A stretch of DNA of 29,734 bases from a virus (Duplodnaviria; Heunggongvirae; Uroviricota; Caudoviricetes). The stretch lies in IMG/VR virus record IMGVR_UViG_2850756110_000009. One strand, 5' to 3'. Under the pieces are notes generated by a model. The model worked only from the letters and a program-made list of their open reading frames with translations. It had not been told where the DNA came from and made no database searches. Every line of letters starts with the position of its first letter. Positions within the stretch are counted from its first letter, which is position 1. Shown in pieces: positions 23,358 to 25,165 of this stretch. The position numbers were made by a program, and so were the translations under genes.

Positions 23358-23366
23358 ATGGCGACA

Positions 23367-23582
23367 TTATTCACCTCTCGCAGCCTTACGCTTATCTTCT
23401 CTTATTTTGAAATACAGATTCGTCAGATAAGTCAGAAGCCCCAGAAGCAGACTTCCCAGCACACCAATCGCAGCCCACTGTGATGGACTGACCTGATCCA
23501 ACCACTGCAAAAACCAGTAGCCGGCACTGCCGGCGGAGGTGCCGTAGGCAATGCCCGTTGAAATTTTGTCCATGGATTTCAT
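23367..23582 (-). CDS. Class II holin/pinholin, phage 21 S-type (71 aa, dual-start MKSM)
   Basis: Translation [71 protein letters not shown] matches the S21 pinholin as I recall it; SD GGAGGTGA upstream; Met1 and Met4 starts present. Confidence 0.85.
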
Positions 23583-23742
23583 AGCCTCACCTCCGCAAAT
23601 AACGGATGGCGTAGTTTTACACTGAGAAATGAAAGGGATTTGAAAAGAAAAAAACGCAAAAGCGGGCGAAACGATATATACAGTAAGGAAAGCACTCTAT
23701 CCAACAAACCACCCACAGTTAATCGGAATAAAAGCAGAGTGC

Positions 23743-23815
23743 TTATGAATGATCGCACGCCCGAAGGTTAGTATTTCTGCACAGCAATTTTGCAAAAAAA
23801 GGCGATCATTCATAA
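23743..23815. repeat. Perfect 14-bp inverted repeat (TTATGAATGATCGC / GCGATCATTCATAA) with 45-bp spacer in the tRNA-holin intergenic region
   Basis: Arms at 23743-23756 and 23802-23815 are exact reverse complements; an adjacent 9-bp inverted repeat has arms at 23690-23698 and 23736-23744. Confidence 0.7.
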
Positions 23816-23874
23816 CTTAAACGTCTTTCAGTCACTCCGGGATTTCCCATCATCGCAGACTGAAAGACTCTGAC

Positions 23875-23949
23875 TGGAGCGGGCAGCGGGAATCGAACCC
23901 GCATCATCAGCTTGGAAGGCTGAGGTAATAGCCATTATACGATGCCCGC
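23875..23949 (-). tRNA. tRNA-Gly (anticodon UCC)
   Basis: 75-nt cloverleaf GCGGGCATCGTATAATGGCTATTACCTCAGCCTTCCAAGCTGATGATGCGGGTTCGATTCCCGCTGCCCGCTCCA, identical in form to E. coli glyT; anticodon loop CTTCCAA. Confidence 0.9.
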
Positions 23950-23952
23950 ATA

Positions 23953-24028
23953 TGGTGCCGACTACCGGAATCGAACTGGTGACCTACTGATTACAAGTCA
24001 GTTGCTCTGCCTGCTGAGCTAAGTCGGC
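23953..24028 (-). tRNA. tRNA-Thr (anticodon UGU)
   Basis: 76 nt; acceptor stem GCCGACT/AGTCGGC; anticodon arm ACTGA-CTTGTAA-TCAGT; T-loop TTCGATT; 3' CCA encoded. Confidence 0.85.
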
Positions 24029-24030
24029 GC

Positions 24031-24107
24031 TGGCCCACCACCGAGGACTCGAACCTCGCACCGTCAACTTAGAAGGTTGATGCTCTATCCGGATGAGCTA
24101 GTGGTGG
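24031..24107 (-). tRNA. tRNA-Arg (anticodon UCU)
   Basis: 77 nt; acceptor CCACCAC/GTGGTGG; anticodon arm TCAAC-CTTCTAA-GTTGA; T-arm CGAGG-TTCGAGT-CCTCG; CCA encoded. Confidence 0.8.
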
Positions 24108-24108
24108 T

Positions 24109-24185
24109 TGGTGGCCCTTGCTGGACTTGAACCAGCGACCTGGCGATTATGAGTCGCTCGCTCTGACCAACTGAGCTAAAGGGCC
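24109..24185 (-). tRNA. tRNA with CAU anticodon, ileX-like (probably tRNA-Ile2, lysidine-modified; tRNA-Met not excluded)
   Basis: 77 nt GGCCCTTTAGCTCAGTTGGTCAGAGCGAGCGACTCATAATCGCCAGGTCGCTGGTTCAAGTCCAGCAAGGGCCACCA, very close to E. coli ileX; anticodon loop CTCATAA. Confidence 0.75.
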
Positions 24186-24265
24186 GGAGGCAGAATAATA
24201 ACCATATGTCATCACATCTGCAAACTCATCTGACCACCAGCACGTTTAACGTCCTGTGCCGTTTT

Positions 24266-25165
24266 TCATTTCAGGTATAAAAAAACCCGCATAAAGCGGG
24301 CTCTTTCAAATGTCCATGTGAAGTGGTCAACAAAAACTGGCCACCGAGTTAGAGTTTTTCCAGTATCGATTTTCCGATTCGTTTGGGGTAACCCACCGTT
24401 ATATTCGTGCGGTCTTAGTGCGCTGTAATATCCAACGATATAGTCCGTTATGGCGTGAGCTGCCTCGCTGAAGCTTACGTAACCCACCACCGGCATCCAT
24501 TCGTTCTTCAGACTCCTGAAGAAGCGTTCCATTGGGCTGTTATCCCAGCAGTTTCCGCGCCGGCTCATACTCTGTCTGATCTGGTATCGCCACAATAACT
24601 GCCGGAACTGCCTGCTCGTATAATGACTGCCCTGATCGCTGTGGAACATCACCCCGCCGGGCTTACCACGGGTTTCCCATGCCATTTCCAGCGCTTTCAT
24701 GGTGAGCCTGCTGTCCGGCGAGAACGACATGGCCCAGCCCACTGGTTTTCTTGCGAACAGGTCGAGAACAACGGCGAGGTACGCCCAGCGCTTACCCGTC
24801 CAGATACAGGGCACATCACCGCACCACACCTGATTTGGCTCGGTCACGGCGAACTGCCTTTCAAGGTAGTTAGGGATAGCAACATGTTCATGACCACCAC
24901 GTTTATACCGGTGAGTCGGCTGCTGACAGCTGACCAGCCCCAGCTCTTTCATGAGCCTGCCAGCAAGCCAGCGTCCCATCTGGTAGCCTCTCCGGGTTGC
25001 CATTGTGGCGATGCTTCTTGCTCCGGCCGAACCATGGCTGATGCCATGTAGCTCAAGTACCTGACTGCGTAATACAGCCCGTCTGCCGTCTGGTTTTTCA
25101 GGACGGTTTTTCCAGTATCTGTAGCTGCTGCGATGAACCCCGAACACTTGGCAGAGTGTGACCAC
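24266..25165 (-). CDS. IS911 OrfB transposase frame, C-terminus frameshifted in this copy
   Basis: DDE transposase frame. Its end reads ...[13 protein letters not shown]..., whereas the truncated copy reads ...[25 protein letters not shown]. The difference is G4 (24385-24388) versus C5 (23287-23291) in the same homopolymer. Confidence 0.8.
24279..24302 (-). terminator. Intrinsic terminator on the minus strand, candidate lambdoid tR'
   Basis: Minus-strand hairpin AGCCCGC-TTTAT-GCGGGTT followed by a T7 run (+ strand A7 at 24279-24285), immediately upstream of the tRNA cluster in transcription order. Confidence 0.6.

What the first reader, a model, noticed from the sequence alone, without database searches (positions are those of the whole stretch)
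23358..24318. Orphan lambdoid late-region stub: tR'-like terminator, four tRNA genes and an S21-type pinholin, with no endolysin or head genes after it
On the minus strand the order is terminator, tRNA-Ile2(CAU)-like, tRNA-Arg(UCU), tRNA-Thr(UGU), tRNA-Gly(UCC), then a 71-aa dual-start pinholin. This mirrors the Q / tR' / tRNA / S arrangement of phage 21 and 933W-type lambdoid phages. Here no toxin or other cargo lies between the tRNAs and S. The endolysin, Rz, terminase, portal and capsid genes are missing: the holin stop (23367) is 10 bp from the end of a truncated IS911 and neck genes follow. Q and the late promoter are replaced by the complete IS911. The tRNAs could still be expressed and supply rare-codon decoding (AGA, AUA).
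Basis: partly seen in the sequence, partly recalled or inferred. Interest (0 to 1): 0.55.

Follow-up and report, generated by a model that had tools for sequence, protein, structure and literature searches.

The report
IS-cut prophage stub: tRNAs plus pinholin
This is the front end of a phage late operon (terminator, four tRNA genes and a phage-21-type holin) left between two IS911 copies in a decayed Shigella-type prophage; it is real and well preserved, but it is an ordinary, already described kind of prophage wreckage.

Summary
On the minus strand lie, in order:
- an intrinsic terminator (24300-24279);
- a conserved promoter-like site;
- four tRNA genes: Ile2-type CAU, Arg UCU, Thr UGU and Gly UCC;
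- a 292-nt spacer without a gene;
- a 71-aa dual-start class II holin, 68/71 identical to S21 of phage 21.

The stub is bounded by the right ends of a full IS911 and a truncated IS911.

Intact relatives in enteroinvasive E. coli carry the same module between a Q-like antiterminator (DUF1133) and an R21-like SAR endolysin. Against them, the window has lost 9.4 kb. That stretch covers the endolysin after its first 10 nt, Rz, terminase, portal and capsid. The window has also lost everything upstream of a point 61 bp past the Q-like stop codon.

The same junctions occur in at least ten other assemblies, so this is not an assembly artefact.

The module itself is common: 382 of 5,426 complete E. coli genomes hold at least 80% of it. 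Its layout is already annotated in phage 21 and in 933W, including a putative tRNA promoter, pT.

The tRNAs may still be expressed from pT; that is inference, not shown. There is no evidence of selection.

Verdict: already known, low interest.

The parts
24319..25566 (-). Near-full-length IS911 (1,248 bp). Its right inverted repeat (IRR) abuts the stub. It is transcribed in the same direction as the stub.
   Evidence: OrfA/OrfB ORFs; ends located. The flanking triplets are CAG and CAT, so there is no 3-bp duplication. A C4/C5 homopolymer difference at 24389 shifts the orfB 3' end.
24279..24308 (-). Intrinsic terminator in the tR' position. GC core at 24300-24286, U7 tract at 24285-24279, with an A-rich 5' flank that can extend the stem.
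   Evidence: Fold of -18.9 kcal/mol, z = -4.26. It occupies the same position as the annotated terminators of phage 21 and 933W. In relatives with a different Q gene the sequence differs up to the T tract and is shared after it.
24195..24223 (-). pT-like sigma-70 promoter: TTGCAG, 17 nt, TATTAT, then 9 nt to the first tRNA.
   Evidence: Scanner hit. It aligns with 933W 'pT; putative tRNA promoter'. TTGnnn-17-TAnnnT-9 is in register in 23 of 29 distinct upstream 45-mers from 115 viral contigs, with 17 different spacers. Activity was not tested.
24109..24185 (-). tRNA with CAU anticodon, tRNA-Ile2 (ileX/ileZ) type.
   Evidence: 70.5 bits. 69/77 identical to K-12 ileX and 74/77 to 933W ileZ. Annotated tRNA-Ile in relatives.
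24031..24107 (-). tRNA-Arg (UCU), reads AGA.
   Evidence: 56.4 bits. 61/77 identical to 933W argN, whose anticodon is TCG; only 58/79 to K-12 argU.
23953..24028 (-). tRNA-Thr (UGU), reads ACA.
   Evidence: 69.8 bits. 74/76 identical to K-12 thrU.
23875..23949 (-). tRNA-Gly (UCC), reads GGA.
   Evidence: 64.9 bits. 75/75 identical to K-12 glyT.
23583..23874 (-). Spacer without a gene. Two long hairpins follow tRNA-Gly directly. A degenerate hairpin plus T run lies about 50 nt before the holin start.
   Evidence: Fold z = -4.07. No Rfam family at E <= 1. The 59-aa ORF has no PHROG match. The downstream hairpin is a good terminator in L002 (-14.2 kcal/mol) but weak here (-3.3). Not homologous to the EPEC PasA spacer.
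23367..23582 (-). 71-aa class II holin of the S21 pinholin type. Starts at M1 (23582) and M4 (23573); GGAGGTGA ribosome-binding site upstream.
   Evidence: PF04971 at 121.8 bits; PHROG holin families. 68/71 identical to S21-71. Weakly hydrophobic TMD1, strongly hydrophobic TMD2 and a charged tail. The exact protein is also encoded in intact prophages.
23358..23367 (-). First 10 nt (ATGTCGCCAT) of the SAR endolysin gene, cut by IS911.
   Evidence: Alignment with L016, L001 and L002. The intact gene in L016 is 95% identical to R21.
22839..23357 (+). Truncated IS911 (about positions 736-1248). Its IRR faces the holin. At its other end it joins the neck-gene start.
   Evidence: Relatives keep IS positions 530-1248; the window type has a further 203-bp deletion.
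25567..25918 (-). N-terminal fragment of a phage integrase. It points the same way as the late genes and runs into the IS911 left end.
   Evidence: Weak Arm-DNA-binding and SAM-like Pfam hits. 99.7% identical to annotated integrase genes.

Best explanation
The segment is the 5' end of the late operon of a temperate phage, left behind by IS erosion. The phage had lambdoid regulation and lysis genes, a contractile-tail structural module and ipaH at its end.

In the intact phage, a Q-like antiterminator (DUF1133) loads RNA polymerase at pR'. Polymerase then reads through the terminator and the tRNA cluster into S (pinholin), R (SAR endolysin), Rz and the packaging and head genes.

Two IS911 copies have removed both sides here. 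One copy sits 61 bp past the Q-like stop codon and 17 bp before the terminator stem. The other sits in codon 4 of the endolysin gene. A later deletion removed the left part of that second IS911 plus 9.4 kb of phage DNA, as far as the start of a neck gene.

What remains is the terminator, a promoter-like site, four intact tRNA genes, a spacer and an intact but partnerless pinholin gene.

Inferred, not shown:
- The tRNAs can still be made from the pT-like promoter. They add decoding capacity for AUA, AGA, ACA and GGA.
- The terminator blocks read-out from IS911.
- The pinholin is expressed weakly or not at all. It could not lyse the cell without its endolysin.
For: Anatomy.

Intact counterparts with Q-like gene / terminator / tRNAs / holin / lysozyme / Rz / terminase / portal: (L016).
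- The stub is identical to L016 apart from a 5-bp insert.
- DUF1133 is Q-like: PF06530 at 29.3 bits against a cut-off of 26, and PHROG 'anti-termination protein Q-like'.

Synteny and deletion: window 3000-22838 is collinear with the tail-to-neck genes of the EIEC prophage, and a 9,394-bp gap follows.

IS junctions.

Same layout annotated in phage 21 and 933W, including pT.

pT hexamers and spacing are conserved while the spacer varies.

Codon use: the phage genes use ATA, AGA, ACA and GGA 2-15 times more often than a sample of host genes.

Independent assemblies: the same int'::IS911 / tRNAs / holin / truncated IS911 / neck order occurs in 10 loci from other assemblies.
Against: - No expression data exist, so pT activity is unproven.
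- No consensus sigma-70 promoter was found in the 61 bp between the Q-like stop and the IS911 site in relatives. The loss of pR' is therefore inferred from position and from phage 21 and 933W, not seen directly.
- In one relative (L004) an ORF6N gene lies between DUF1133 and the terminator. The Q-to-terminator distance is therefore not fixed.
- No strong terminator separates the tRNAs from the holin in this variant. Some read-through into S cannot be excluded.
Confidence: 0.9

Rival explanations
1. The stub is a domesticated tRNA mini-operon. Selection keeps it because it helps translate A-ending rare codons (AUA, AGA, ACA, GGA) in horizontally acquired genes. The holin rides along as a passenger.
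For: - All four tRNAs and the pT site are intact and identical in 11 sequences whose flanks have been rearranged in several ways.
- All four anticodons read codons that are 2-15 times commoner in phage genes than in the host sample.
- Neighbouring neck genes carry frameshifts in some strains.
Against: - The stub is also identical to intact prophage copies, so it is young.
- Background diversity in the flanks is only about 1-2 differences per kb. Zero differences in 960 bp is therefore not significant.
- tRNA-Gly and tRNA-Thr duplicate the host genes glyT and thrU.
- The equally intact holin shows that intactness alone is no sign of selection.
Confidence: 0.1
2. The two IS911 copies and the DNA between them form a composite transposon that moves the tRNA-holin cassette.
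For: The stub is bracketed by two inverted IS911 copies.
Against: - Both right ends face inwards.
- The second copy lacks its left end and its transposase N-terminus.
- The full copy has no target duplication.
- In all ten related loci the unit sits in the same place next to the same neck genes.
Confidence: 0.02
3. The hairpin is not tR' but the terminator of the early (Q-gene) transcript. In that case the only promoter for this segment is the pT-like site.
For: - No consensus promoter was detected between the Q-like stop and the hairpin in relatives.
- The A-rich 5' flank makes the hairpin look bidirectional.
Against: - Relatives with a 933W-type Q share the leader downstream of the T tract. 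They carry, at the same position, a hairpin homologous to the 933W terminator that follows pR' and qut.
- Different Q families each come with their own sequence up to the T tract. That pattern is expected if the Q-specific promoter lies there.
Confidence: 0.1
4. The arrangement is an assembly artefact caused by collapsed IS repeats.
For: The window is dense with repeated IS copies.
Against: The same junctions are present in ten loci from other assemblies, most of them multi-megabase contigs. They differ only by small indels.
Confidence: 0.01

Closest known systems
Late-region leader and lysis cassette of coliphage 21 (OL657228)
   Same: The order is Q, pR', terminator, tRNA genes, dual-start S21 pinholin, SAR endolysin. 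The holin is 68/71 identical. The endolysin lost here is 95% identical to R21 in the intact relative.
   Different: Phage 21 has two other tRNAs (Asn, Thr), which follow the terminator directly. It has no pT-like site, and its Q is of a different family. In the window Q, pR', R and Rz are gone.
Stx2 phage 933W, Q-to-stx region (NC_000924)
   Same: It is annotated pR', qut, terminators, 'pT putative tRNA promoter', ileZ-argN-argO, terminator. pT and the window site share TTGCAG-17-TATTAT and 9 nt to the tRNA. ileZ is 74/77 identical to the window's CAU tRNA, and argN is 61/77 identical to its Arg tRNA.
   Different: 933W has three tRNAs, followed by stx2AB, an esterase and other cargo before S. 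Its holin is more distant (73% nucleotide identity). The window has four tRNAs and no cargo.
Intact prophages with the same module in E. coli and EIEC (e.g. CFSAN029787, FDAARGOS_943/944, locus L016; phages PhiR47_1, vB_EcoS-689R5)
   Same: 95-99.5% nucleotide identity over the whole 961 bp, or over the part from pT onward. 382 of 5,426 complete E. coli genomes hold at least 80% of it.
   Different: These are complete: a Q-type gene lies upstream and lysozyme, Rz and packaging genes lie downstream. The second tRNA is Lys in many, and the fourth has decayed to 'Val' in some.
Lysis cassettes kept in defective prophages, such as DLP12 of E. coli K-12 (own knowledge; PMC7918800 was listed but not read)
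   Same: A class II holin survives in a prophage that can no longer grow.
   Different: DLP12 keeps the endolysin and spanin genes. Here only the holin survives.

Membership tests
tRNA (Rfam RF00005) | Cloverleaf scored above the family threshold by a covariance model, and found by an independent tRNA finder. | tested here: met
   Four hits of 56.4-70.5 bits against a gathering score of 29. ARAGORN finds the same four. All encode 3' CCA.
tRNA-Ile2 (CAU anticodon read as AUA after lysidine modification; ileX/ileY/ileZ type) | CAU anticodon, with a body resembling tRNA-Ile2 rather than tRNA-Met. | tested here: met
   69/77 identical to K-12 ileX and 74/77 to 933W ileZ. C4:G69 and C5:G68 can be read in the sequence; that these pairs matter to TilS is my own knowledge. 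The same sequence is annotated tRNA-Ile in relatives. It was not compared with the tRNA-Met genes.
tRNA-Ile2 (CAU anticodon read as AUA after lysidine modification; ileX/ileY/ileZ type) | C34 is actually converted to lysidine and the tRNA is charged with isoleucine. | not testable with these tools
   Needs tRNA mass spectrometry or aminoacylation assays.
Class II holin, S21 pinholin type (Pfam PF04971) | Profile match and close identity to S21. | tested here: met
   121.8 bits against a cut-off of 26. 68/71 identical to S21-71.
Class II holin, S21 pinholin type (Pfam PF04971) | Dual start (Met1-Lys-Ser-Met4) giving antiholin and holin, two transmembrane segments (the first weakly hydrophobic) and a charged C-terminus. 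| tested here: met
   MKSM start as annotated for S21-71 and S21-68. Hydropathy: residues about 8-27 are weak and 35-58 are strong; [13 protein letters not shown] tail.
Class II holin, S21 pinholin type (Pfam PF04971) | Works with an adjacent SAR endolysin. | tested here: not met
   Only 10 nt of the endolysin gene remain in the window. The partner is present in intact relatives and is 95% identical to R21. The protein belongs to the family, but the system is incomplete here.
Lambdoid late-operon leader (Q, pR', tR') | Q-type antiterminator gene immediately upstream. | tested here: not met
   IS911 and an integrase fragment lie upstream in the window. Relatives carry DUF1133, Phage_antitermQ or Antiterm genes there.
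Lambdoid late-operon leader (Q, pR', tR') | Intrinsic terminator between Q and the first late genes. | tested here: met
   Hairpin plus U7, -18.9 kcal/mol, z = -4.26. Same position as the annotated terminators in phage 21 and 933W.
Lambdoid late-operon leader (Q, pR', tR') | Late promoter with a Q-binding element. | tested here: inconclusive
   Only 17 bp remain upstream of the stem in the window. The consensus scan found no promoter in the corresponding 61 bp of the relatives.
933W-type tRNA promoter pT | -35 and -10 hexamers at fixed spacing just upstream of the first tRNA. | tested here: met
   TTGCAG-17-TATTAT-9 nt in the window and in 933W. The pattern is in register in 23 of 29 distinct upstream sequences.
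933W-type tRNA promoter pT | Promoter activity. | not testable with these tools
   It is annotated only as 'putative' in 933W. Needs 5'-end mapping or a reporter fusion.
IS911 (IS3 family) | Terminal inverted repeats, and orfA and orfB with an rve domain. | tested here: met
   Ends TGAAGTGG... at 25566 and 24319. rve domains.
IS911 (IS3 family) | 3-bp target duplication flanking a simple insertion. | tested here: not met
   The flanks are CAG and CAT. The copy is therefore a recombinant between two insertions, not a simple insertion.

The most novel reading that the evidence does not exclude
A Shigella lineage keeps this stub because the self-promoted tRNA cluster raises the supply of tRNAs for AUA, AGA, ACA and GGA. 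That supply would tune translation of AT-rich acquired virulence genes. The upstream terminator would insulate the cluster from IS911 transcription. The orphan pinholin would be silent, or would serve as a membrane-depolarising effector.
Probability: 0.08. Interest if true: 0.4.

Novelty: already known. Interest (0 to 1): 0.1.

Why it matters
It matters little beyond annotation.

- It documents exactly how IS911 and a secondary deletion cut a lambdoid late operon. It also shows that the cut left four intact tRNA genes with their own conserved promoter-like site.
- It is a reminder that such genomes may carry extra copies of tRNAs for rare codons that are not part of the core tRNA set.
- If the tRNAs proved to be expressed and beneficial, this would be a small example of prophage tRNA domestication. 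Phage tRNAs matching phage codon use, and tRNA genes downstream of Q in phage 21 and 933W, are established knowledge.

Tried and rejected
1. A Pas-type sRNA in the spacer. A 2026 preprint places PasA next to a holin-lysozyme operon, and in E2348/69 it lies just upstream of a class II holin gene. I fetched the E2348/69 loci. Only the holin coding region matches (78%); the spacer is unrelated.

2. Known RNA families in the stub at E <= 1. Only the tRNAs are real. The weak Trp-leader, isrK and YrlA hits are far below threshold and span the IS end.

3. Terminator scanner. It missed the tR'-like hairpin, probably because its stem extension consumed the T run. Folding settled the matter.

4. Exact scan of GTDB representative genomes for the holin/IS911 junction. 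No match.

5. Look-up of the 162-aa truncated transposase as a junction marker. It found the same assembly and one metagenome contig. That contig turned out to be a different IS911 copy with a stop mutation. The int'::IS911 fusion ORF worked better.

6. Species of the carrying assemblies. A literature search by accession number found nothing. 'Shigella-type' therefore rests on ipaH and the IS load only.

7. Composite transposon and assembly artefact. Both rejected; see the rival explanations.

8. Covariation test of the spacer hairpins. Not possible, because relatives are nearly identical. The one divergent relative (L002) has uncompensated changes in hairpin 2.
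Full report
**What is in the sequence**

Reading the minus strand from 24318 to 23358 gives, in order:
- a hairpin followed by seven T;
- about 90 nt of leader;
- four closely packed tRNA genes;
- a 292-nt spacer;
- a 216-nt ORF.

ARAGORN finds exactly four tRNAs in the whole 29.7-kb window, all here. Their anticodons and positions are CAT (24185-24109), TCT (24107-24031), TGT (24028-23953) and TCC (23949-23875). 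Rfam's tRNA model scores them at 70.5, 56.4, 69.8 and 64.9 bits against a gathering score of 29. All four encode CCA.

The hairpin has a CCCGC/GCGGG core at 24300-24286 and a U7 tract at 24285-24279. It folds at -18.9 kcal/mol, against -7.6 for shuffled sequence (z = -4.26). The simple terminator scanner missed it, probably because A:U and G:U extension of the stem consumed the T run.

**The tRNAs**

I compared them with E. coli K-12 genes fetched from the annotated genome.
- The Gly tRNA is identical to glyT (75/75).
- The Thr tRNA is 74/76 identical to thrU.
- The CAT tRNA is 69/77 identical to ileX.
- The Arg tRNA is only 58/79 identical to argU.

Against phage 933W:
- The CAT tRNA is 74/77 identical to ileZ.
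- The Arg tRNA is 61/77 identical to argN. It has the same acceptor and T arms, but the anticodon is TCT instead of TCG.

NCBI's pipeline annotates the same CAT tRNA as tRNA-Ile in near-identical copies. Lysidine modification itself cannot be tested here.

All four anticodons read A-ending codons (AUA, AGA, ACA, GGA). In the intact relative, these codons make up the following shares of their families:

| Gene set | Share of ATA, AGA, ACA, GGA within their codon families |
|---|---|
| Late genes | 12.5, 8.2, 20.0 and 16.0% |
| Early genes | 17.9, 16.4, 33.6 and 23.1% |
| 21 host genes | 5.2, 1.5, 9.9 and 8.3% |

They fit the usual pattern of phage tRNAs matching phage codon use.

**The holin**

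The ORF at 23582-23367 encodes 71 residues.
- It matches Pfam PF04971 ('Bacteriophage P21 holin S') at 121.8 bits, and also PHROG holin families.
- It is 68/71 identical to the S21-71 product of phage 21. The three changes are conservative: V46L, F49L and R64K.
- The MKSM start, which in phage 21 is annotated as giving the antiholin S21-71 and the holin S21-68, is kept.
- Hydropathy shows a weakly hydrophobic, Gly/Ala/Ser-rich first segment, a strongly hydrophobic second segment and a charged tail.
- The exact protein is encoded in many intact prophages.

**What the stub was part of**

The 961 bp find near-identical copies in E. coli prophages. 382 of 5,426 complete genomes hold at least 80% of it, and several sequenced phages hold the part from the promoter-like site onward.

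The nearest intact copies are an EIEC prophage (CFSAN029787) and locus L016. Their gene order is:
- DUF1367, DUF1364, DUF1133;
- the terminator, the tRNAs and the holin;
- lysozyme RrrD and Rz;
- small and large terminase, portal, head genes;
- neck, sheath, tube, baseplate and tail fibres.

DUF1133 is a Q-like antiterminator. It scores 29.3 bits on PF06530 (cut-off 26) and 272.7 bits on a PHROG named 'anti-termination protein Q-like'. The lysozyme in L016 is 95% identical to the SAR endolysin R21. The window's stub is identical to L016 apart from a 5-bp insert in the leader.

**What was lost and how**

A BLAST comparison of the window with the EIEC prophage gives the following map.
- Window 3000-22838 is collinear with the tail-fibre-to-neck genes, interrupted by IS2, IS1 and an IS66-family element.
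- Window 23358-24319 matches the terminator-to-holin segment.
- The 9,394 bp between them in the relative are absent. They carry the major capsid, cement, scaffold-like, head-morphogenesis, portal, both terminase subunits, a hypothetical gene, Rz and the endolysin apart from its first 10 nt.

The holin stop is at 23369-23367. ATGTCGCCAT (23367-23358) is the start of the endolysin gene, and the IS911 right end begins at 23357.

This second IS911 is truncated. In most related assemblies it keeps IS positions 530-1248 and joins the neck gene's start codon through a 2-nt filler. In the window and three relatives a further 203 bp are missing.

On the other side, a 1,248-bp IS911 (24319-25566) abuts the stub. 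In relatives that point lies 61 bp after the DUF1133 stop and 17 bp before the terminator stem. Its flanks are CAG and CAT, so it has no 3-bp target duplication. Its left end interrupts an integrase N-terminal fragment that points the same way as the late genes. That arrangement is what recombination between two inverted IS911 copies would produce, one in int and one between Q and the terminator. This model is inference.

**Is the hairpin tR'?**

Phage 21 is annotated Q, pR' (-35 starting 7 bp after Q), QBE, start site, terminator, then the tRNAs. 933W is annotated pR', qut, terminator.

Relatives with a different, Phage_antitermQ-type Q (L005, L011) carry a different hairpin at exactly the same place. 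By my own reading of the printed sequences (not a computed alignment), their Q-to-hairpin stretch resembles that of 933W. They share the window's sequence from the T tract onward. Each Q type thus brings its own sequence up to the terminator, as expected if the Q-specific promoter lies there.

The label 'tR'-like' is reasonable. It follows that pR' is lost from the window. I could not see a consensus promoter in the 61 bp of the DUF1133-type relatives, so this step is inferred rather than shown.

**Can the tRNAs still be made?**

Just upstream of the first tRNA lies TTGCAG, then 17 nt, TATTAT, then 9 nt to the tRNA (24223-24195). 933W has TTGCAG-17-TATTAT-9 at the same place, annotated 'pT; putative tRNA promoter'.

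I collected 115 viral contigs that carry this tRNA.
- Their upstream regions give 29 distinct 45-mers.
- 23 of those have TTGnnn-17-TAnnnT-9 in register.
- TATTAT occurs in 23.
- The spacers come in 17 different versions.

Conserved hexamers with a variable spacer are good comparative evidence for a promoter. Activity remains untested.

The terminator 17 bp inside the stub should stop transcripts that read out of IS911, which is co-oriented. This too is inference.

Downstream of tRNA-Gly there are two strong hairpins but no clean terminator. A hairpin plus T run about 50 nt before S is good in one relative (-14.2 kcal/mol) but degenerate here and in most copies (-3.3). The same holds in intact prophages, so it says nothing particular about this remnant.

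**Distribution**

A fusion ORF that spans the int'/IS911 junction is on record in 23 contigs. Thirteen index blocks that hold it have contigs longer than 1 Mb.

The ten loci fetched all show int', IS911, the tRNA region, the holin, the truncated IS911 and the neck genes. Their outer flanks differ: ipaH, zitB, another IS66 element, IS1 with RHS genes, and others.

One of them (L156) has zitB | IS66 | int'. The window has zitB | IS66 | tail fibres at one end and ipaH | IS66 | int' at the other. The same 8 bp of a tail-fibre gene sit next to both IS66 copies. The window's version therefore arose by inversion between IS66 copies.

Across the 11 sequences the stub shows no substitution and one 5-bp indel. 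The flanks show about 1-2 differences per kb. That is too little divergence to argue for or against selection. The arrangement is real and inherited, not an assembly artefact.

The window is 99.95% identical to GCA_900618175.1. I could not determine the species with these tools. ipaH and the IS load point to Shigella or EIEC.

**Comparison and verdict**

The stub works like, and is homologous to, the late-operon leader and lysis-cassette start of phage 21 and 933W-type phages. The tRNAs and the holin pass their family tests.

The late-leader system fails two of its tests in the window: there is no Q gene and no endolysin.

Nothing here is new in kind. The module is common, its layout (including pT) is annotated in reference phages, and IS erosion of prophages is routine in such genomes.

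The one open and mildly interesting question is whether the surviving tRNA cluster is expressed and useful. The data neither show nor exclude this.

Noticed in passing
window 559-2999, 17796-20234, 26027-28472; 3000-3007 and 28473-28480: There are three near-identical IS66-family copies (99.8-99.9%). The same 8 bp of a tail-fibre (DUF4376) gene flank two of them, in opposite orientation. This is a split target duplication, so the whole remnant was inverted between IS66 copies. Locus L156 keeps the un-inverted order zitB | IS66 | int'.
   Followed up: partly
window 25567-26026: An integrase N-terminal fragment is co-oriented with the late genes and fused to the IS911 left end. About 150 bp of IS1 lie beyond it. 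The IS911 has no target duplication (CAG/CAT). This suggests an earlier IS911-IS911 inversion that moved the early region and Q elsewhere or led to their loss.
   Followed up: partly
window 22839-22843; loci L148-L156: The truncated IS911 comes in two forms among related assemblies: IS positions 530-1248, or the same minus a further 203 bp. The window has the shorter form.
   Followed up: yes
window 24389: The full IS911 has a run of four C where the truncated copy and most relatives have five. This shifts the last ~20 codons of orfB. It may be a real frameshift or a homopolymer sequencing error.
   Followed up: partly
window 23875-24028 versus K-12 thrU and glyT: The phage tRNA-Gly is identical to host glyT and the tRNA-Thr is 74/76 identical to thrU. 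Both host genes belong to one operon (thrU-tyrU-glyT-thrT). This looks like capture of host genes, or gene conversion with them.
   Followed up: partly
L001 6365-6435 and L002 6365-6435: In EIEC relatives the fourth tRNA has anticodon TAC and has lost one base in the 3' acceptor strand. It is annotated tRNA-Val and is probably a decayed copy of the Gly tRNA.
   Followed up: no
window 23583-23874: The spacer between tRNA-Gly and the holin folds unusually well (z = -4.07). Two long hairpins follow the tRNA directly. It matches no Rfam family and is unrelated to the PasA sRNA spacer of EPEC. Its role is unknown; RNA processing, attenuation or nothing are all possible.
   Followed up: partly
window 24269-24273: A 5-bp duplication (TGAAA) lies in the leader between the terminator and the pT-like site. 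It is present in the window and most related assemblies, but absent from two of them and from the intact prophages.
   Followed up: yes
window 28868-29734 and 1-525: The 3' part of an ipaH (NEL-domain effector) gene lies at one end of the window and the 5' part of zitB at the other. The remnant is an ipaH-carrying prophage island next to zitB.
   Followed up: no
L009 and L014, about 6750-9887 and 8002-9887: In two other genomes a different IS3-family element sits inside the tRNA-to-holin spacer, at stub position about 650. The region is therefore a repeated IS target.
   Followed up: no
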